A stretch of 64,000 bases of DNA, from contig CBDEUS010000001.1 of NCBI GenBank assembly GCA_965243395.1, positions 416,001 through 480,000 on the forward strand, written 5' to 3'. The first letter of the stretch is position 1. The number at the start of each line of letters is the position of its first letter. Positions 4,989 to 11,334 of the stretch are shown here, piece after piece. This DNA comes from Gammaproteobacteria bacterium. GTDB lineage: Bacteria > Pseudomonadota > Gammaproteobacteria > UBA4575. The notes beneath the pieces are model-generated. The model was not told the DNA's origin and searched no databases. It worked only from the letters and a program-made list of their open reading frames with translations. Made by a program: the position numbers and the translations under genes.

Positions 4989-5126
4989 GCCCTAGTTTTT
5001 ATCTATGAAATTAGTGTTTTATTACAATAATTAATTATCACATTTTAGGGTACAGTTTATGGGGTTGCGAGAGTAATTTTCATAAATAAAATAACGACTT
5101 AAATAATTGGATAAGTTTTAGAGCTA

Positions 5127-6389
5127 ATGAACAAACTAAATACATACACCCAGCAATCAGGACATCATGCCAACTTAAAATTACTTATCTGGTTGCGTGC
5201 AGTTTCGATTGTTGGACAATTTACCGCTGTCATTATTGCTAAACATTATCTTGAAATTTCTTTACAAACAGGTGTGTTGTATACATGGATTGGCATTTAT
5301 GTATTTATCAATCTATTAACCATCACGCGACTTTATACAAAAATTGAAATTCACAAATGGGAATTTTTTGCTCACTTAATTGTTGACATAATAATTCTGA
5401 CTATTTTATTAAAATATTCAGAAGGAGGTGCGAATCCGTTTGTTTCCCTATATTTAATCCCTCTTACCATTTCAGCAATAACGCTCCCGGCAATGTTTAC
5501 TTGGGTGTTGGCTGCTATCACGATTTGTTGTTATAGCCTACTTGTATGGGTCTTTAGCCCAATGACTGGACATAGTTTTCATGCAAATCATTTTGATGTT
5601 CATGTTATAGGTATGTGGTTGGGGTTCGTGATTAGTGCTGCTCTTGTCGCATTTTTTGTAGTTAGGATGGGCCGAATTATTCAACTACAGCAACAAAAAC
5701 TTGCAGAACAAAAATCACAACAACTACAAAACGAACAATTTGTAAAACTAGGCACGTTAGCCGCCAGTACTGCCCATGAGCTGGGTACACCACTCGGTAC
5801 TATGCAACTCGCTGTAGAAGAGTTGCAAAATAATCCTGAAGATAACAAGAAACAACTTCATATTTTAAATGATCAAATAAAACGCTGTAAAGAAGCGTTA
5901 TCAGTATTATCCGCTTCTGTAGGCGCACCGCCACTAGAAAGTGGTCAACCTATGAAGGTTAAAAACTTTATTGATGATGTCTTTAATGATTGGCAGCAGT
6001 CTCGCCCAGCCATCAATATTGAAACAAACTGGGTCTCTGATTCCTCTGGTCCAGAAATCATTGCAGAGAGATCGCTGAAACAAGCCATCAAAAATATTTT
6101 AGATAATGCAGCTGATGTATCACCAGAATATGTATTATGTGAAGCCTCGCTAAAACAAGATGAGTTGATACTCAAAGTATCAGATCATGGCCCAGGCATC
6201 ACATTTGATAAAAATGAGAAGATTGGCCAGCAACCTGTTTCAAGTAAAGCGAAAGGAATGGGGCTTGGGTTATTTTTATCGCATGGAATTATCAAAAGAT
6301 TTGGAGGAAATGTTTCTCTAAAGAATATTAGGGAAGGTGGATTACAAACCACTATTTCTTTACCAATACAAACTCTTGCCATTTCATGA
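5127..6389 (+). CDS. regB: RegB/PrrB/RoxS-family redox sensor histidine kinase
   Basis: About 6 TM segments, GANPF motif, H-box AHELGTPL, Cys in QIKRCKE, N/G boxes (LDNAAD, DHGPG, GMGLGL). Confidence 0.85.
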   Translation: MNKLNTYTQQSGHHANLKLLIWLRAVSIVGQFTAVIIAKHYLEISLQTGVLYTWIGIYVFINLLTITRLYTKIEIHKWEFFAHLIVDIIILTILLKYSEGGANPFVSLYLIPLTISAITLPAMFTWVLAAITICCYSLLVWVFSPMTGHSFHANHFDVHVIGMWLGFVISAALVAFFVVRMGRIIQLQQQKLAEQKSQQLQNEQFVKLGTLAASTAHELGTPLGTMQLAVEELQNNPEDNKKQLHILNDQIKRCKEALSVLSASVGAPPLESGQPMKVKNFIDDVFNDWQQSRPAINIETNWVSDSSGPEIIAERSLKQAIKNILDNAADVSPEYVLCEASLKQDELILKVSDHGPGITFDKNEKIGQQPVSSKAKGMGLGLFLSHGIIKRFGGNVSLKNIREGGLQTTISLPIQTLAIS

Positions 6390-6916
6390 ATAATAATTTG
6401 CTCATAGTTGAAGATGATGAAGCTTTTTCATGTGCGCTCGGAAACGCACTAGAGAAAAAAGGATTCAATGTATTTAGTTCAAGTACAGTAAGCTCTGCAA
6501 TTCATGCAGCGAATACACACTCCCCAAATTTTGCTGTTATAGATTTAAAATTAGAAAATGAATCGGGTCTGAAGATTATTCCAGTATTAAAAGGGCTAAA
6601 CTCTAAAATAAAAATAGTCGTGCTTACTGGATATGCAAGCATTGCTACCGCAGTAGAGGCTATTAAACTTGGGGCAATGCAATATTTAACAAAACCCGCT
6701 AGTAGCGAAGAAATTTATCAAGCGTTTTTTAAATCAGACGGAGATGCGGAACAAAATCTTGTTTCAAATCCAATGTCTCTAAGACGTCTTGAATGGGAGC
6801 ATATTCAAAAAGTACTAAGCGAAAATGATGGAAATTTATCTGCCACTGCAAGAGCATTGGGAATGCATCGAAGAACTTTGCAGCGCAAATTAAATAAGAA
6901 TCCTGCAAAAAATTAA
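6386..6916 (+). CDS. regA: RegA/PrrA/RoxR-family response regulator
   Basis: LTGYASIATAVEAIKLGA, WEHIQKVL and SATARALGMHRRTLQRKL hallmark motifs; ATGA overlap with the kinase. Confidence 0.92.
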   Translation: MNNNLLIVEDDEAFSCALGNALEKKGFNVFSSSTVSSAIHAANTHSPNFAVIDLKLENESGLKIIPVLKGLNSKIKIVVLTGYASIATAVEAIKLGAMQYLTKPASSEEIYQAFFKSDGDAEQNLVSNPMSLRRLEWEHIQKVLSENDGNLSATARALGMHRRTLQRKLNKNPAKN

Positions 6917-6946
6917 ATGTCTGCTATCGACCTAAAGCGGACATTT
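6915..6946. repeat. 32-bp imperfect palindrome, copy 1 (AAATGTCTGCT-ATCGACCTAA-AGCGGACATTT)
   Basis: 11-bp arms with 1 mismatch and a 10-nt spacer; overlaps the regA stop codon. Confidence 0.85.
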
Positions 6947-6963
6947 TGAAGTCTTTTATTCAG

Positions 6964-7395
6964 ATGAAGTATTTATTCAGCTTAGCTTGGTTATTGCTGA
7001 TACTGTTGCTTCTTTCATCTTGTGGACCATCTTGCCAAAAAGACTCTGAGGCTGTTGTATTTGCAAAATCTTTGTCAAATGAACAACTCGAAAAATTATT
7101 TATTGATATGCAAACACACTGGAGAAGATTCGACGCTCCTGACGATGGATACTTTCGGGGAACAGAGCCTATTGAGTTTGCTTATCTAAATGCTGCAAAG
7201 GTAAGACCAAGAGATATGAACATAATGCTAGAAGGGTGTCTCGATGAATTTGTCGGCTTAATATTTCACGGGTTCACACTTGAGCCAGATGATGTGATTA
7301 AAGAGCAGAAAATTGAAATTGAATATCACGACAGAGAAAATATAGTGCGAGAGGTATTATGGGTAAACGTTAAATTAGATGATAAAGACAAATGA
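6964..7395 (+). CDS. Hypothetical lipoprotein between the two palindromes
   Basis: MKYLFSLAWLLLILLLLSSC lipobox; ATG at 6964 preferred over TTG at 6946; stop TGA lies inside palindrome 2. Confidence 0.7.
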   Translation: MKYLFSLAWLLLILLLLSSCGPSCQKDSEAVVFAKSLSNEQLEKLFIDMQTHWRRFDAPDDGYFRGTEPIEFAYLNAAKVRPRDMNIMLEGCLDEFVGLIFHGFTLEPDDVIKEQKIEIEYHDRENIVREVLWVNVKLDDKDK

Positions 7396-7421
7396 CCGTT
7401 ATTGGCCGAAAGCAGTCATTT
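7390..7421. repeat. 32-bp imperfect palindrome, copy 2 (AAATGACCGTT-ATTGGCCGAA-AGCAGTCATTT)
   Basis: 11-bp arms with 2 mismatches; 10-nt spacer identical to copy 1 at 7/10 positions. Confidence 0.85.
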
Positions 7422-7446
7422 TAAAAACGGAGTATTTCTATTCAGA

Positions 7447-7488
7447 AACAACATCCATGTTGTTACTCATATTCGCACATCCATGTGC
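7447..7488. repeat. Two short hairpins sharing an ACATCCATGT core
   Basis: AACAACATCCATGTTGTT (7447-7464) and GCACATCCATGTGC (7475-7488). Confidence 0.7.
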
Positions 7489-7672
7489 TCACTACTCACT
7501 GCAATAGGTAATTTCTTGCTAAAGATATAGTAGGAAGGTCATGTATTTATATGCAATGACTTTGATTCCATGGGCTCATGTAAGTTTTTGGTCTTTTGTC
7601 AGGTCAGATAACTAAGTTGAACAACAGAATGAGGAGCTAACTTTTTATACTCCTTGTGAAATTGAGGCAAAG

Positions 7673-8281
7673 TTGAATCAAAAACCTATTAAAGTAACTA
7701 TATTTCGTTGGGCAGGTTCCTGGGGGCCTTTCAAAGTTAAAATTTCTTGTGGTGAATGTACTTTAACCAAAGATGTAATTTTAGATACTCTTGAAAATGA
7801 ATTATCTGGAATTTCAATAGAAATAGAATCACGAGAATGGCTGAGTGAATGGTGGAAGCCTTTAGCAAAAGGAGGATGGCATGCTCCAATTGTAATGGTT
7901 GAAGGTAAAGTTGTAAGTCAAGGAGTTGCAATCAACCGAGGTATTCTTACGCAAGCAGTTATTGAAGCCTATTCTAGAAATTTAGAAATTGAAGGCAACC
8001 ATCTTTTTGGAAAAGAAAGTTGTCCTCATTGTAAACGGGCGAAAGGGTATCTTGATCAGGCTCAAATTCCTTATCACTATCATGATGTTGTCAAAAGCCC
8101 AAGTGGCTTGTATGAAATGCTTGCTCGTGTGAAACCTCTTATTGGTTCTAAAACACCTGTAACTGTTCCACAAATATGGCTTGATGGCACATACATAGGA
8201 GGAGCGGATCAGCTTAGTAACGTAGTACAGCAAAAAGTCGAACCTAATTTTGATCGTGGTAAGTGCTCAATTTCTCCATAA
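7673..8281 (+). CDS. Two-domain thioredoxin-fold/glutaredoxin protein
   Basis: N-terminal CGEC; C-terminal CPHC with TVPQIW and YIGG; TTG start after GAGG. Confidence 0.8.
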   Translation: MNQKPIKVTIFRWAGSWGPFKVKISCGECTLTKDVILDTLENELSGISIEIESREWLSEWWKPLAKGGWHAPIVMVEGKVVSQGVAINRGILTQAVIEAYSRNLEIEGNHLFGKESCPHCKRAKGYLDQAQIPYHYHDVVKSPSGLYEMLARVKPLIGSKTPVTVPQIWLDGTYIGGADQLSNVVQQKVEPNFDRGKCSISP

Positions 8282-8544
8282 AGTCGCAGATCACACAATA
8301 AAATTCACTCCATATTATTTCCTCAGTTTTTCAGCTCTCAGAGAAAATCTTAAGAAAATATCAACAGCAATCTATGTAGAGAGTGACACTGAATACAAAG
8401 TAATCAAATTTAAATTTATTTTTTATCAGTGAGATACTAAAACCATCTGTAGTAAATTCTTAACAAGAATAAATTTAATTTCTCATTCATCTGGTTAGTG
8501 TAAAATAATGCCTTAAAAAATAATTTAATTAATTTGGAGGAGCT

Positions 8545-8765
8545 ATGAAAAAACCAGTATTCACTGCGACTCTATTCATCACAATTATATTAATACCGTT
8601 TCTTGCTTTTTCTGACAGAAATGAGCATAAAGAAACAATCAAAGTTCCGCATTCACTAAAACTACTGCTATTCCGAGTGATGTGTATGTAAATCCTCAAT
8701 TTGATATGGAAGCTGATAGGGAATATAACGAGCAGGCTGAAATGGAATTTCGTGTGTGTGGTTAG
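8545..8765 (+). pseudogene. Small secreted protein, apparently frameshifted (48-aa ORF 8545-8691; alternative frame continues to 8765)
   Basis: Strong GGAGG RBS, signal peptide MKKPVFTATLFITIILIPFLAFS, and an open shifted frame NQSSAFTKTTAIPSDVYVNPQFDMEADREYNEQAEMEFRVCG*. Confidence 0.45.
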
Positions 8766-8820
8766 CCAAATAATTTGGTATAAGTTGCAGCCATAATAGA
8801 ATCTATTAACTAGATCATGT

Positions 8821-8849
8821 AAAGAAGCTTAATTGTATTGGGCTTCTTT
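8821..8849 (+). terminator. Probable intrinsic terminator hairpin
   Basis: AAAGAAGCTTAAT-tgt-ATTGGGCTTCTTT followed by T-rich sequence. Confidence 0.55.
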
Positions 8850-8914
8850 GTAGTTTTATTTTCCTTATTTTTTACGCAAACGCGATCCTAGTTTGAATAA
8901 ACTAATGCCAAGTA

Positions 8915-9709
8915 ATGACTATCAATATCGAAGATAAATATGTAGGGCTCATCCCAGCTGCTGGATGTGCCAGTCGCTTACCAAACTTAGGTTGTAGTAA
9001 AGAAATTTATCCAATACCTACGATTACCGAGCAGAATGAACAAAAATTTACCCCTGTAAGTTCTTATCTTATCCAGTCTTATCAAAGGGCAAGCATAAAT
9101 AATATAAAGATTATTCTTCGTGATGGTAAAGAAGATATCATTGAAACATTAGGCAATGGTCAGCAATATGGCGTACAGCTAAGTTATTTGTACACACAGA
9201 TTTTTCATGGCCCACCTTATAGCTTAGATGCTGCCTTTTCAGATGTTCAAAGCAAATCCATTGCGGTTGGATTTCCTGATATTTTGTTCACACCTCAAGA
9301 TGCATTTGCATCGCTTATTAATAAACAAGAACAGACTCAAGCCGATGTTGTTCTGGGCCTGTTTGTTGCGCCACATCCACATAAAATGGATATGATTGAA
9401 TTTGATTCAGCGAGCAACATTAAATCCATTCACATTAAACCTTCGCAGTCTCCACTAAAATGGACGTGGATATTAGCGGTGTGGACACCTCTTTTTAGTG
9501 TGTTTATGCATCAAACACTGAAAAAAATGCTGCCTGAATTTGAGACCAAACAGCGCAATGAGTGCCATATTGGAACTATTTTTCAACTAGCATTAAACGA
9601 GGGACTTCGTTTTGATTATGTGTATTATGATACAGGTGAGTTGATTGATATAGGCACCCCGGATGACTTGCATCGCATTGAGCATTCATGCCCGGACTGG
9701 CTTAAATAA
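8915..9709 (+). CDS. Sugar-phosphate nucleotidyltransferase (RmlA-like)
   Basis: GLIPAAGCASRL..SKE N-terminal motif, GFPD, C-terminal DIGTPDD. Confidence 0.8.
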   Translation: MTINIEDKYVGLIPAAGCASRLPNLGCSKEIYPIPTITEQNEQKFTPVSSYLIQSYQRASINNIKIILRDGKEDIIETLGNGQQYGVQLSYLYTQIFHGPPYSLDAAFSDVQSKSIAVGFPDILFTPQDAFASLINKQEQTQADVVLGLFVAPHPHKMDMIEFDSASNIKSIHIKPSQSPLKWTWILAVWTPLFSVFMHQTLKKMLPEFETKQRNECHIGTIFQLALNEGLRFDYVYYDTGELIDIGTPDDLHRIEHSCPDWLK

Positions 9710-10416: not shown

Positions 10417-11334
10417 ATGAGTGATTCTTCATTTACTTTGCCGCCTGACCAGCCTGTTATTGAGGCTTTTCTTGATACTTTGTGGGTAGAACATGGCTTA
10501 AGTGAGAACACATTATCTGCGTATCGTAACGATTTGTTAGGTTTGTCGAAGTGGTTGTCTAAAATGACAGTGAATATTACCGATGCCCGCCGAGATCATT
10601 TATTGGATTATTTGTCCTATCGTGTGCAACAAGGCAGTATGCCGCGTACTTCTGCAAGATTATTATCAAGTATTCGACGTTTTTATCGTTATCTTGTGCG
10701 ACAAGGCGCTGTGCAGAAAGATCCTTCTGCACAAATTGAATTTCCGAAACTCGGTCGTCCGTTACCCGAAACTTTAACGGAAGAAGAGGTTGAACGTTTA
10801 CTCGCTGCACCTAATACAAATAAGGCGCAAGGGGTGCGTGACCGTGCAATGTTAGAGGTACTTTATGCTTGCGGATTGCGAGTTAGTGAATTGATTGGCT
10901 TAACACTCAGTCAAGTAAACTTAAATCATGGTGTAATTCGCGTGACAGGCAAGGGCAATAAAGAACGCTTAATTCCATTTGGAGAGCAAGCCAATGAATG
11001 GATTTCGAAATTCATAAATGAAGCACGAGCAGATTTGTTAAAAAATAATCGTCCTTGCGATGCATTATTTATAACTAATCGAGGTGCTGCAATGACACGG
11101 CAGGCATTTTGGCATTTGATTAAAAAGCACTCGAAAAATGTAGGCATTACTAAGCACTTATCTCCACATACTTTGCGACATGCATTTGCGACTCATTTGT
11201 TAAATCATGGTGCGGATTTGCGCGTTGTGCAAATGCTATTAGGACATAGTGACCTATCTACCACGCAAATATATACGCATGTAGCACAAGCAAGATTACA
11301 GGAACTGCACCGCAAGCATCATCCCCGAGGCTAA
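10417..11334 (+). CDS. xerD: Tyrosine recombinase XerD
   Basis: GLSENTLSAYRNDL, YACGLRVSEL, SPHTLRHAFATHLLNHGADLRVVQMLLGHSDLSTTQIYTHV; precedes dsbC. Confidence 0.96.
   Translation: MSDSSFTLPPDQPVIEAFLDTLWVEHGLSENTLSAYRNDLLGLSKWLSKMTVNITDARRDHLLDYLSYRVQQGSMPRTSARLLSSIRRFYRYLVRQGAVQKDPSAQIEFPKLGRPLPETLTEEEVERLLAAPNTNKAQGVRDRAMLEVLYACGLRVSELIGLTLSQVNLNHGVIRVTGKGNKERLIPFGEQANEWISKFINEARADLLKNNRPCDALFITNRGAAMTRQAFWHLIKKHSKNVGITKHLSPHTLRHAFATHLLNHGADLRVVQMLLGHSDLSTTQIYTHVAQARLQELHRKHHPRG

What the first reader, a model, noticed from the sequence alone, without database searches (positions are those of the whole stretch)
6915..7421. Single-gene cassette exactly bracketed by two related 11-10-11 palindromes: possible non-integron gene-cassette system
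Seen: AAATGTCTGCT-ATCGACCTAA-AGCGGACATTT and AAATGACCGTT-ATTGGCCGAA-AGCAGTCATTT, in the same orientation with similar asymmetric spacers. The arms co-vary (TGTC/GACA versus TGAC/GTCA). Between them is one orphan lipoprotein ORF with no room for a promoter, starting 17 nt after site 1 and with its TGA stop inside the left arm of site 2; the regA stop likewise overlaps site 1. Inference: inverted arms, a directional spacer and a compact promoterless ORF are the layout of recombinase-mobilised cassettes, yet the sites match neither attC (RYYYAAC..GTTRRRY) nor dif/pdif (11-6-11). From memory, similar palindromes are dispersed in many proteobacterial genomes, but I know of no assigned mechanism. 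No cognate recombinase is visible; xerD is 3 kb away and may be coincidental.
Basis: partly seen in the sequence, partly recalled or inferred. Interest (0 to 1): 0.72.

Follow-up and report, generated by a model that had tools for sequence, protein, structure and literature searches.

The report
Palindrome-bounded gene cassettes, not integron
The two palindromes are copies of a widespread 30-base site that marks the seams between swappable single-gene cassettes in many environmental bacteria, which looks like a gene-shuffling system that works like an integron but uses different sites and an unknown enzyme.

Summary

They are not a private pair. This genome holds about 83-113 copies in two loop classes (A and B) and none of a reversed control. 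They are co-oriented with the genes they follow and clustered in arrays of small, mostly orphan ORFs. The family is in 13 of 14 other genomes of the genus and in MAGs labelled as several phyla.

At the regA locus the nearest relative carries a different cassette behind the same site. Where 90-100% identical cassette DNA of different contigs stops, it stops at a site in 10 of 13 cases, sometimes inside it.

The arms do not co-vary across the family, so they read as protein half-sites rather than hairpins. attC cores, integron integrase, RAYT and dif likeness were all tested and not met. This complete genome shows no transposase or serine recombinase of the families searched.

Best reading (0.58): crossover sites of a non-integron cassette system whose recombinase is unidentified. 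No excision or circle was shown.

The scan noted the same family before on another stretch of this genome (e1-1206741).

The parts
6386..6916 (+). regA-type response regulator (receiver + Fis-type HTH); its stop TAA overlaps site 1. This is the conserved gene behind which the cassette sits.
   Evidence: ORF; Pfam Response_reg 1.6e-22 and HTH_8 6.7e-13; conserved with regB in 11 fetched loci of the genus.
6915..6946 (+). Site 1: 30-32 bp inverted-repeat site, class B with a hybrid loop (ATCGACCTAA). It is the docking-side site, and synteny with the nearest relative ends at its 3' edge (6944).
   Evidence: B+, 9 of 10 arm pairs; blastn against G012 locus L136 stops at 6944.
6947..6963 (+). 17-nt leader between site 1 and the ATG. 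It lacks the GGTTGGAA promoter-like linker that precedes B sites in composite elements.
   Evidence: Read; linker anatomy.
6964..7395 (+). Cassette ORF: 143-aa putative lipoprotein, an orphan. Its stop TGA lies inside the left arm of site 2.
   Evidence: Translation; no Pfam family; found in 0 of 55 other genomes of the family; 2 proteins in the 5.8-billion collection, itself called as 95 aa and one at 73% identity.
7390..7421 (+). Site 2: class A site (loop ATTGGCCGAA), the cassette's own 3' site.
   Evidence: A+, loop 0 mismatches.
7422..7494 (+). 'Tail' repeat that follows the last A site of several arrays. It has two ACATCCATGT boxes 26 nt apart. It is multi-copy and its function is unknown.
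   Evidence: Direct repeat D4; query 1592-1695 matches many places in all 15 genomes of the genus, including site-free G014 (tail part only).
6945..8409 (+). Variable segment relative to the nearest relative G012, which holds 740 nt of other DNA here (linker, decayed B, a 146-aa membrane ORF, decayed B).
7673..8281 (+). Glutaredoxin-domain ORF (202 aa) inside the variable segment, with no recognisable site behind it. It may be an older cassette or backbone lost in G012.
   Evidence: Pfam Glutaredoxin 3.3e-13; no tblastn match in L136.

Best explanation
The two palindromes are members of a large family of 30-bp sites: two 10-11-bp inverted arms, consensus AATGTCCGCT / AGCGGACATT, around an asymmetric 8-10-bp centre of class A or B. 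These sites are the seams between mobile single-gene cassettes. The window holds a one-cassette array docked behind regA.

Shown:
- The family is multi-copy, co-oriented with genes and arrayed.
- Array content turns over between species.
- Identical cassette DNA in different contexts ends at or inside a site. The arm next to the ORF travels with it; the centre and the far arm do not.

Inferred:
- A site-specific recombinase binds the two arms as double-stranded half-sites and exchanges strands at the borders of the centre. The 11-8-11 geometry is that of Cre or Xer type tyrosine-recombinase core sites (recalled).
- This excises and inserts units of the form [right arm]-leader-ORF-[left arm].
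- The common A-(43 or 53 nt)-B composite is then an ORF-less mini-cassette. Its invariant GGTTGGAA-N20-B module looks like a sigma-70 promoter reading into the next cassette.

The enzyme is unknown. In this genome the only site-specific recombinases found are XerC, XerD and three P4-type island integrases.
For: 1. Copy number. 62+62 matches against 0 control in this genome. 83 high-confidence sites, 43 A and 40 B, or 113 with laxer limits.

2. Spread. 13 of 14 other genomes of the genus, with up to 204 forward matches per genome. Also in contigs titled Alphaproteobacteria, Nitrospina and others. 291 copies in one Pseudolabrys MAG. Present in contigs of 57% and 65% G+C.

3. Orientation. 54 of 83 sites have a co-oriented ORF of at least 60 codons ending within -40..+12 nt. 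Only 9 of 83 have an opposite-strand ORF ending at the far side. In 12 the stop is the site's own TGA.

4. Arrays. Small ORFs are each separated by sites. A 16-kb array in G012 has about 30 units. Most products have no family; the rest are GNAT, glyoxalase, nitroreductase, OsmC and DUFs.

5. Turnover.
- regA locus: G000 and G012 share regB-regA at 86% up to the site and then differ.
- Of a 7.4-kb array, only one cassette matches in 5 congeners at E<=1e-25.
- The array behind ychF and tRNA-Met is absent in G012.

6. Breakpoints. Of 13 ends where at least 90% identical DNA stops, 10 lie at or within 10 nt of a site and 3 do not. 15 further ends run on collinear.
- L198/L244: the ORF-side arm, including the rare variant AGCGGTCGTT, is shared while the loop is class A in one and class B in the other.
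- L190/L217: only the ORF-side arm is shared at both ends.
- L192/L202: linker, B and downstream are identical, and the upstream ORF and the left arm of A differ.

7. Decay. Decayed sites sit behind old copies, at C1:753939 and in G011 behind the SNase gene. This fits sites that arrive fresh with cassettes.

8. Composite anatomy. 135 of 139 close site pairs are A then B. GGTTGGAA lies exactly 20 nt before B in 111 of 112.
Against: - No recombinase was found. Integron integrase is over cut-off in 6 of 41 relatives, and only 1 of those carries the sites. Y1 transposase is in 3 of about 20 site-bearing relatives. The P4-type integrases are not conserved among site-bearing genomes.
- This genome has no match to Resolvase, IS110 DEDD, rve, DDE_Tnp_1, Relaxase or Y1 and no dispersed repeat typical of an IS.
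- No gene for such an enzyme recurs beside arrays in 16 metagenome contigs.
- No circle, empty site of the same strain or excision joint was seen. The two joints in the source run are cross-matches of other repeat copies.
- HSP ends were defined on site-masked DNA, which favours ends at sites. The test rests on whether identity resumes beyond the site.
- ORF cassettes are flanked by unlike centres (B upstream, A downstream). A classical tyrosine recombinase that needs identical overlap regions would not readily recombine these.
- In many contigs the sites follow ordinary housekeeping-size genes, as REP elements do.
- Some taxon labels come from MAG titles and may reflect binning errors.
Confidence: 0.58

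Rival explanations
1. REP/BIME-like intergenic elements. The palindromes (two unit types plus conserved linkers) are selfish or expression-related extragenic repeats that colonise the 3' ends of genes. Cassette-like variation is ordinary gain and loss of island genes, with illegitimate or short-homology recombination happening to break at the repeats.
For: Extragenic, high copy, just after stop codons, two unit types combined with fixed linkers. The A-linker-B composite is an inverted pair of related units of about 105-115 nt that can fold as one long hairpin (-12.2 kcal/mol, z -2.1), like REPIN doublets (recalled). In metagenome contigs the sites follow genes of all sizes and kinds. No dedicated recombinase was found. 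The promoter-like geometry of the linker fits a role in expression.
Against: RAYT/Y1 transposase, the defining partner of REPs, is absent from this genome and from most site-bearing relatives. REP families are lineage-specific (recalled), whereas this 30-mer recurs nearly unchanged in contigs of many taxa and of 36-65% G+C. Arrays of about 30 orphan single-gene units with full turnover between sister species are not a REP trait. Breaks occur inside a 30-bp site with arms of only 10 nt, too short for RecA-type exchange (recalled). Sites decay where cassettes are old, which argues against a selected host function.
Confidence: 0.24
2. The host XerC/XerD pair is the recombinase, so these are Xer-mobilised modules (a sub-case of the best explanation).
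For: XerC and XerD are the only tyrosine recombinases shared by all site-bearing genomes examined. The complete genome G011 has just XerD, XerC and one P4-type integrase. The site geometry can be read as 11-8-11. In this genome both xer genes lie within 3.5 kb of a cassette: xerD at window 10417-11334, and xerC at C2:250961-251932 with sites at C2:247854 and 248474. A universal host enzyme would explain the missing dedicated gene and the wide spread.
Against: This genome's dif-like site (ACTTCGCATAA-TATATA-TTATGTTAAAT at C1:959290, near the GC-skew maximum) shares no arm similarity with AATGTCCGCT. The centre is 8-10 nt, not 6. Site-free genomes (G014, G016, G018, G020) also have XerC/D-type genes, so there is no discrimination. 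The xerD proximity is shared by synteny within the genus and is one event, not several.
Confidence: 0.08
3. Classical integron remnants: the sites are divergent attC sites in clusters lacking an integrase (CALIN).
For: Same layout as cassette arrays: promoterless small ORFs, co-oriented, site right after the stop, typical cassette gene content. The A-linker-B composite mirrors the two simple sites (LH, RH) of an attC (passages of PMC3053210). CALINs are common in genomes without IntI (abstract and passages of PMC4889954).
Against: RYYYAAC and GTTRRRY are both present in 0 of 83 sites, in either orientation. A single 30-bp site, below the 57-141 bp attC range, is enough as a seam. There is no co-variation for an attC-like fold. 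IntI does not co-occur, and G014 has IntI and no sites. The family is abundant in Alphaproteobacteria-labelled MAGs, a group reported to lack integrons (abstract of PMC4889954). The break lies inside the site, not at its 3' end. There are at least 10 array loci per genome rather than one platform.
Confidence: 0.04
4. Plain transcription terminators or mRNA-stabilising hairpins with no role in DNA rearrangement.
For: Position right after stop codons, orientation with the gene, A-rich and T-rich flanks. Site 1 folds well as RNA (-12.6 kcal/mol).
Against: Only 9 of 83 sites are followed by a T-run. Mean RNA energy is modest and equal on both strands (-6.7 and -7.1 kcal/mol). Site 2 is no better than shuffles as DNA (z -0.7). 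There is no compensatory change. Terminators are not conserved in sequence across phyla (recalled). None of this explains breaks at the sites.
Confidence: 0.04

Closest known systems
Integron cassette arrays, especially sedentary chromosomal integrons and CALINs (IntI, attI, attC)
   Same: Co-oriented single-gene, mostly promoterless cassettes of unknown or accessory function. Recombination site immediately after, or overlapping, the stop codon. Array content differs between sister species. A composite form with two inverted simple sites and a variable middle.
   Different: No RYYYAAC/GTTRRRY cores (0 of 83). A 30-bp site suffices. Sites are conserved in sequence and not in structure. No IntI in most carriers. 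Many array loci per genome and no attI or integrase end. Homology breaks inside the site, so each cassette keeps one arm of each flanking site. Abundant in Alphaproteobacteria-labelled MAGs.
REP / BIME / REPIN elements with RAYT transposases (recalled from the literature, not read here)
   Same: Extragenic imperfect palindromes of 30-35 nt at gene ends, in tens to hundreds of copies. Two unit types combined with fixed linkers into mosaic elements of about 100 nt. Inverted doublets able to form a long hairpin.
   Different: No RAYT (Y1) gene in this genome or most carriers. The same sequence occurs across distant taxa. Strict co-orientation with the upstream gene. Arrays of orphan genes with turnover. 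Breaks of cassette homology at the sites.
Xer-dependent modules: dif, plasmid pdif modules, IMEX elements (recalled)
   Same: Short sites with two about 11-bp arms around a short centre. Genes bracketed by sites. A host-encoded recombinase would explain the missing dedicated gene.
   Different: Arms are unlike this genome's dif. The centre is 8-10 nt, not 6. Sites are in direct rather than alternating orientation. Near-palindromic arms rather than distinct XerC and XerD arms.
Neisserial dRS3 repeats and intergenic mosaic elements (NIMEs) (recalled)
   Same: Short palindromic repeat (arms around an 8-nt centre) flanking variable short segments at gene ends. Used as an attachment site by a mobile element. 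Hundreds of copies.
   Different: Different sequence and size. In Neisseria the partner is an IS110/Piv-type enzyme, and no DEDD transposase is found here. NIME segments are non-coding, whereas here they are genes.

Membership tests
Integron attC site | Inverse core RYYYAAC at the 5' end and core GTTRRRY at the 3' end (PMC3053210, passage seen) | tested here: not met
   Both present in 0 of 83 sites of this genome, in either orientation; one of the two present in 1 of 83.
Integron attC site | Size 57-141 bp with two simple sites (LH, RH) around a variable palindromic middle | tested here: inconclusive
   The A-(43/53 nt)-B composite of 103-113 bp has this outline. But single 30-bp sites separate cassettes in many places, and breaks fall at single sites.
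Integron attC site | Recognition by folded structure: pairing kept through sequence change | tested here: not met
   Long-hairpin model on 94 composites: 89.8% of cells paired against a shuffled mean of 90.0 (420 of 500 shuffles as high); covariation 0.047 against 0.051.
Integron (system) | Integron integrase IntI in the genome or beside the array | tested here: not met
   TIGR02249 is over cut-off in 6 of 41 relatives (G014, G015, G025, G035, G039, G040), and only G015 carries the sites. This genome has none over cut-off.
REP / REPIN | Cognate RAYT (Y1 HUH transposase) in the genome | tested here: not met
   PF01797: 0 matches in this genome at 100% completeness. Among site-bearing relatives only G001, G015 and G022 match.
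REP / REPIN | Extragenic imperfect palindromes in many copies, often as inverted doublets of about 100 nt | tested here: met
dif / pdif (Xer sites) | 11-6-11 layout with XerC and XerD arms like the host's dif | tested here: not met
   The centre is 8-10 nt. The dif-like site of this genome (C1:959290) has unrelated arms (the probe motif was recalled).
Intrinsic terminator | G+C-rich stem followed by a T-run | tested here: not met
   T-run after 9 of 83 sites. The consensus scan of 5000-9000 lists neither site.
Tyrosine-recombinase simple core site (Cre/Flp/Xer type) | Two inverted 11-13-bp arms around a 6-8-bp asymmetric crossover region, with exchange at its borders | tested here: inconclusive
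   The geometry fits if read as 11-8-11, and breaks map between arm and centre in 3 pairs. No enzyme is identified, and A and B centres differ, which such enzymes usually do not tolerate (recalled).

The most novel reading that the evidence does not exclude
A second, integrase-less kind of gene-cassette system, spread across several bacterial phyla. Thirty-base palindromic sites, conserved in sequence rather than in fold, serve as crossover points at many chromosomal loci. Cassettes carry one arm of each flanking site. An abundant ORF-less mini-cassette supplies a promoter. The recombinase is either a new family or a universal host enzyme.
Probability: 0.4. Interest if true: 0.88.

Novelty: new variant of a known kind. 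Interest (0 to 1): 0.7.

Why it matters
Integrons are the only well-understood platform that stockpiles and shuffles single genes, and they are reported as missing from groups such as the Alphaproteobacteria (abstract of PMC4889954). A second platform with its own conserved site would matter in three ways if the reading holds.

- It would explain part of the orphan-gene turnover in environmental genomes. The site is present in marine Gammaproteobacteria-type genomes, soil Alphaproteobacteria-labelled MAGs and others.
- It would give a simple sequence tag for finding mobile genes in metagenomes.
- It would point to an unknown recombinase with a 30-bp target, of possible use as a tool.

It also bears on annotation, because about 100 intergenic sites per genome are currently unlabelled.

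I found no description in print. Four sequence strings of the site (none of the listed papers concerns bacterial repeats, and the two 14-mers have no occurrence in them) and two 8-mers of the arms sought together (only unrelated primer and construct papers listed) gave nothing relevant. Three word searches returned only integron papers. Subscription journals are not covered by that library.

Tried and rejected
**Public runs**
- No RNA holder was listed for the stretch.
- On Logan contigs of four runs, the source run spans the whole region. Its two joints (6947 to 7389 and 7391) come from two other contigs that match only the 31-35 nt of site sequence, so they are repeat cross-matches and not excision.
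- In three metagenome runs the regA part and the part from about 7376 on were covered, but 6974-7375 (the cassette ORF) had no cover. No contig joins across it, so this is not evidence.

**Known families and collections**
- Rfam: no family at E up to 5 on the window stretch or on five site-bearing loci.
- Plasmid and phage collections: one weak partial match in 72,556 plasmids and none in 50,697 phages.
- Viral contigs: 2 exact matches.

**Search for an enzyme**
- Clustering ORFs beside sites in 130 genome loci gave only frames that overlap the repeats themselves.
- Pfam of 210 ORFs in and around this genome's arrays and of 72 ORFs of at least 180 aa on 16 metagenome contigs gave no recurring recombinase. 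One rve_3 fragment sits on L242.
- The two larger site-flanked ORFs without a family (343 and 323 aa) are unrelated, look membrane-like, and have no NCBIfam match.
- IS91 Y2_Tnp: no match, but the control genomes were silent too, so this is uninformative.

**Other**
- The two dispersed 1.2-1.4-kb repeats of this genome are duplicated ordinary genes without sites.
- A serine-recombinase reading (crossover at a central dinucleotide) was rejected. In L198/L244 and L190/L217 the half-centre next to the shared cassette is not shared, and this genome has no Resolvase match.
- A target-site-duplication (DDE transposon) reading was rejected because the centres on the two sides of a cassette differ.
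- DNA-uptake sequence, regulator operator and CRISPR readings were dismissed on copy number, position and spacing. These were argued, not tested.
Full report
**1. The observation**

The sequence is as described.
- Site 1 is AAATGTCTGCT-ATCGACCTAA-AGCGGACATTT at 6915-6946.
- Site 2 is AAATGACCGTT-ATTGGCCGAA-AGCAGTCATTT at 7390-7421.
- regA (6386-6916; Response_reg + HTH_8) ends with a TAA that overlaps site 1.
- A 143-codon ORF starts at the ATG at 6964, 17 nt after site 1. Its TGA (7393-7395) lies inside the left arm of site 2.
- Its product begins with a lipoprotein-type signal and has no Pfam family.

**2. A family, not a pair**

The same pattern at up to 2 mismatches matches 62 times on each strand of this 2.58-Mb, 100%-complete genome. 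The reversed control matches 0 times.

With a loop filter I count 83 firm sites (43 with loop near ATTGGCCGAA, class A; 40 near AACGACCCAA, class B). Laxer limits give 113.

They cluster at about ten loci: C1:28-46 kb, 116-118 kb, 232-236 kb, 281-293 kb and 872-902 kb, and C2:162-169 kb, 247-248 kb, 520-543 kb and 997-999 kb. There, ORFs of about 90-200 codons are each separated by a site.

The loop asymmetry follows the genes.
- 54 of 83 sites have a co-oriented ORF ending within -40..+12 nt.
- 9 of 83 have an opposite-strand ORF ending at the far side.
- In 12 the stop is the TGA of AATGAC.

Most array products have no family. The named ones are GNAT, glyoxalase, nitroreductase, OsmC, isochorismatase, a nuclease, an immunity protein and DUFs.

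**3. Composite elements**

Where two sites lie within 120 nt, the order is A then B in 135 of 139 cases, 43 or 52-54 nt apart. The linker holds GGTTGGAA exactly 20 nt before B in 111 of 112 composites, while its distance from A varies.

TTGGAA, 17 nt, then NAAAAT or TTTAAT (whose last three bases are the first bases of B) is a sigma-70-like geometry reading towards the next ORF. 52 of 122 composites pass a standard rule, against 6 of 11,394 slid positions. These copies are related, so this is an inference and not a test.

Composites in contigs of higher G+C carry a different linker. Site 1 of the window has no such linker in front of it, so the ORF would be read through from regA.

**4. Distribution**

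The sites are in 13 of 14 other genomes of the genus and in several other genera of the family, with up to 204 forward matches. They were not found in G014 (same genus) or in three small-genome genera.

The titles include Alphaproteobacteria, Pseudolabrys, Hyphomicrobiales, Betaproteobacteria, Woeseiaceae, Thiotrichales, Nitrospina, Acidobacteriota and others.

Copy numbers vary widely: one Pseudolabrys MAG has 291 copies, and some genomes have only one. MAG labels can be wrong. However, composites also sit in contigs of 57% and 65% G+C, so the spread beyond one lineage is real.

Plasmid, phage and viral collections hold next to none.

**5. The locus in relatives**

Eleven loci with regB-regA were fetched from the genus.
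- Ten have no site after regA.
- The nearest relative, G012 (86% identity), has a class A site at the same place. It is followed by the linker, a decayed B, a 146-codon membrane ORF and another decayed B.

Synteny runs to window 6944 and resumes at 8410. So the site after regA is shared and what lies behind it differs.

The G012 cassette has an 82% copy elsewhere in this genome, again followed by a decayed site. The window's ORF was found in 0 of 55 other genomes of the family. In the large protein collection it has one homologue, at 73% identity.

**6. Turnover and islands**

- A 7.4-kb array shares one cassette with five congeners at E<=1e-25.
- A 5.9-kb array region shares only the composites and three diverged ORFs.
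- The array behind ychF and tRNA-Met is the first part of a 20.5-kb island, bounded by a 48-bp repeat of the tRNA end and a P4-type integrase. G012 lacks the island.

**7. Where homology breaks**

I compared site-masked loci of different origin. I then looked at the unmasked ends of all matches of at least 90% identity and 150 nt: 28 ends.
- 15 continue collinear beyond the site (flank identity 0.97-1.00).
- Of the 13 that stop, 10 stop at or within 10 nt of a site and 3 elsewhere.

Masking forces match ends onto sites, so the count that matters is stops against continuations.

Alignments show the break inside the site.
- L198/L244 share the ORF and the adjoining arm with its rare variant, but one has an A centre and the other a B centre.
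- L190/L217 share only the ORF-side arm at both ends.
- L184/L195 and L205/L214 share ORF plus A site, with linker plus B present in one only.
- L192/L202 share linker, B and downstream, but not the upstream ORF or the left arm of A.

A nuclease cassette shared by G000 and G011 is homologous from about 20 nt before the ATG to the end of its 3' site and no further.

The unit that moves is therefore [right arm]-leader-ORF-[left arm]. The linker behaves as an ORF-less unit of the same kind. Recurrent hybrid centres such as ATCGACCCAA (site 1 and four others) fit A-by-B exchange.

**8. Hairpin or protein site**

The arms do not co-vary.
- In this genome position 5/26 is A.A in 34 of 83.
- Position 7/24 assorts independently.

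On 94 composites from other DNA, neither two local hairpins (87.4% of cells paired against a shuffled mean of 87.2) nor one long attC-like hairpin (89.8 against 90.0) beats the shuffles.

RNA energies are modest and equal on both strands, and T-runs follow 9 of 83 sites. Site 2 folds no better than shuffles as DNA. I therefore read the arms as double-stranded half-sites.

**9. Which enzyme**

None was identified.
- IntI and Y1 transposase do not co-occur with the sites.
- This genome has XerD, XerC and three P4-type integrases. It has no match to Resolvase, IS110 DEDD, rve, DDE_Tnp_1 or Relaxase and no IS-like repeat.
- The P4-type integrases are not shared by other carriers.
- G011, a complete genome, has only XerD, XerC and one such integrase.
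- The dif-like site of this genome is canonical and unlike the arms.
- Flanks of arrays on metagenome contigs show ordinary genes.

**10. Comparison and verdict**

The layout and behaviour are integron-like, but every defining integron feature that I could test fails (definitions from passages of PMC3053210). The anatomy also recalls REP/BIME/REPIN elements, but the RAYT partner is missing and the gene-plus-arm mobility is not a REP trait.

I rate the cassette-recombination reading at 0.58 and a REP-like reading at 0.24.

A note on another genome suggested looking at modules with inverted-repeat ends (e1-4064210), which I tested here.

I found no published description.

Noticed in passing
window 7422-7494: A 'tail' repeat after site 2 with two ACATCCATGT boxes 26 nt apart. 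Copies, with or without an A site in front, lie in all 15 genomes of the genus, including G014, which has no sites. On the opposite strand the boxes would put GGA in short hairpin loops. Function unknown, no Rfam match.
   Followed up: partly
window 8640 (and 8545-8691): Contigs of the source run and of one metagenome run carry one more A behind 8640 than the window does (table 4). The missing base splits a small ORF that is whole (73 aa) in G012 (L136:3514-3735). This is probably an assembly slip in a homopolymer.
   Followed up: no
G000 C1:1-9348, C2:1-10404, C1:1272337-1279210, C2:1292134-1299313: All four contig ends are perfect tandem repeats, with periods of 387 bp and 318 bp. The two contigs are therefore one chromosome broken at two long repeat arrays, perhaps giant repeat-protein genes.
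   Followed up: no
G000 C1:591742-593121 = C2:1003805-1005184; C1:559375-560526 = C2:722704-723855: Two single genes (a periplasmic binding protein and a fatty-acid desaturase) are duplicated at 99.9% identity. The copied stretch runs from just before the ribosome-binding site to just after the stop codon, in unrelated surroundings and without the palindromic sites.
   Followed up: partly
G000 C1:232177-252647 (locus L157 and beyond): A 20.5-kb island sits at the 3' end of tRNA-Met, bounded by a 48-bp repeat of the tRNA end and a P4-type integrase. It starts with a seven-cassette array and is absent in G012 (L177). A second array abuts another tRNA-Met at C2:543265-543341.
   Followed up: partly
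G000 C1:959290-959317: A canonical dif-like site (4 mismatches to the E. coli motif) lies near the cumulative GC-skew maximum of contig 1.
   Followed up: no
G014 (C20:40615-41559) against the rest of the genus: The one congener without any site is also the one with an integron integrase over the curated cut-off. The two cassette systems may exclude or replace one another.
   Followed up: no
L183, L196, L221, L230, L240 (metagenome contigs of higher G+C): Here the A-B composite keeps both sites but has a different linker, without GGTTGGAA and with complementary GGCCC../..GGGCC stretches that change in step between copies.
   Followed up: no
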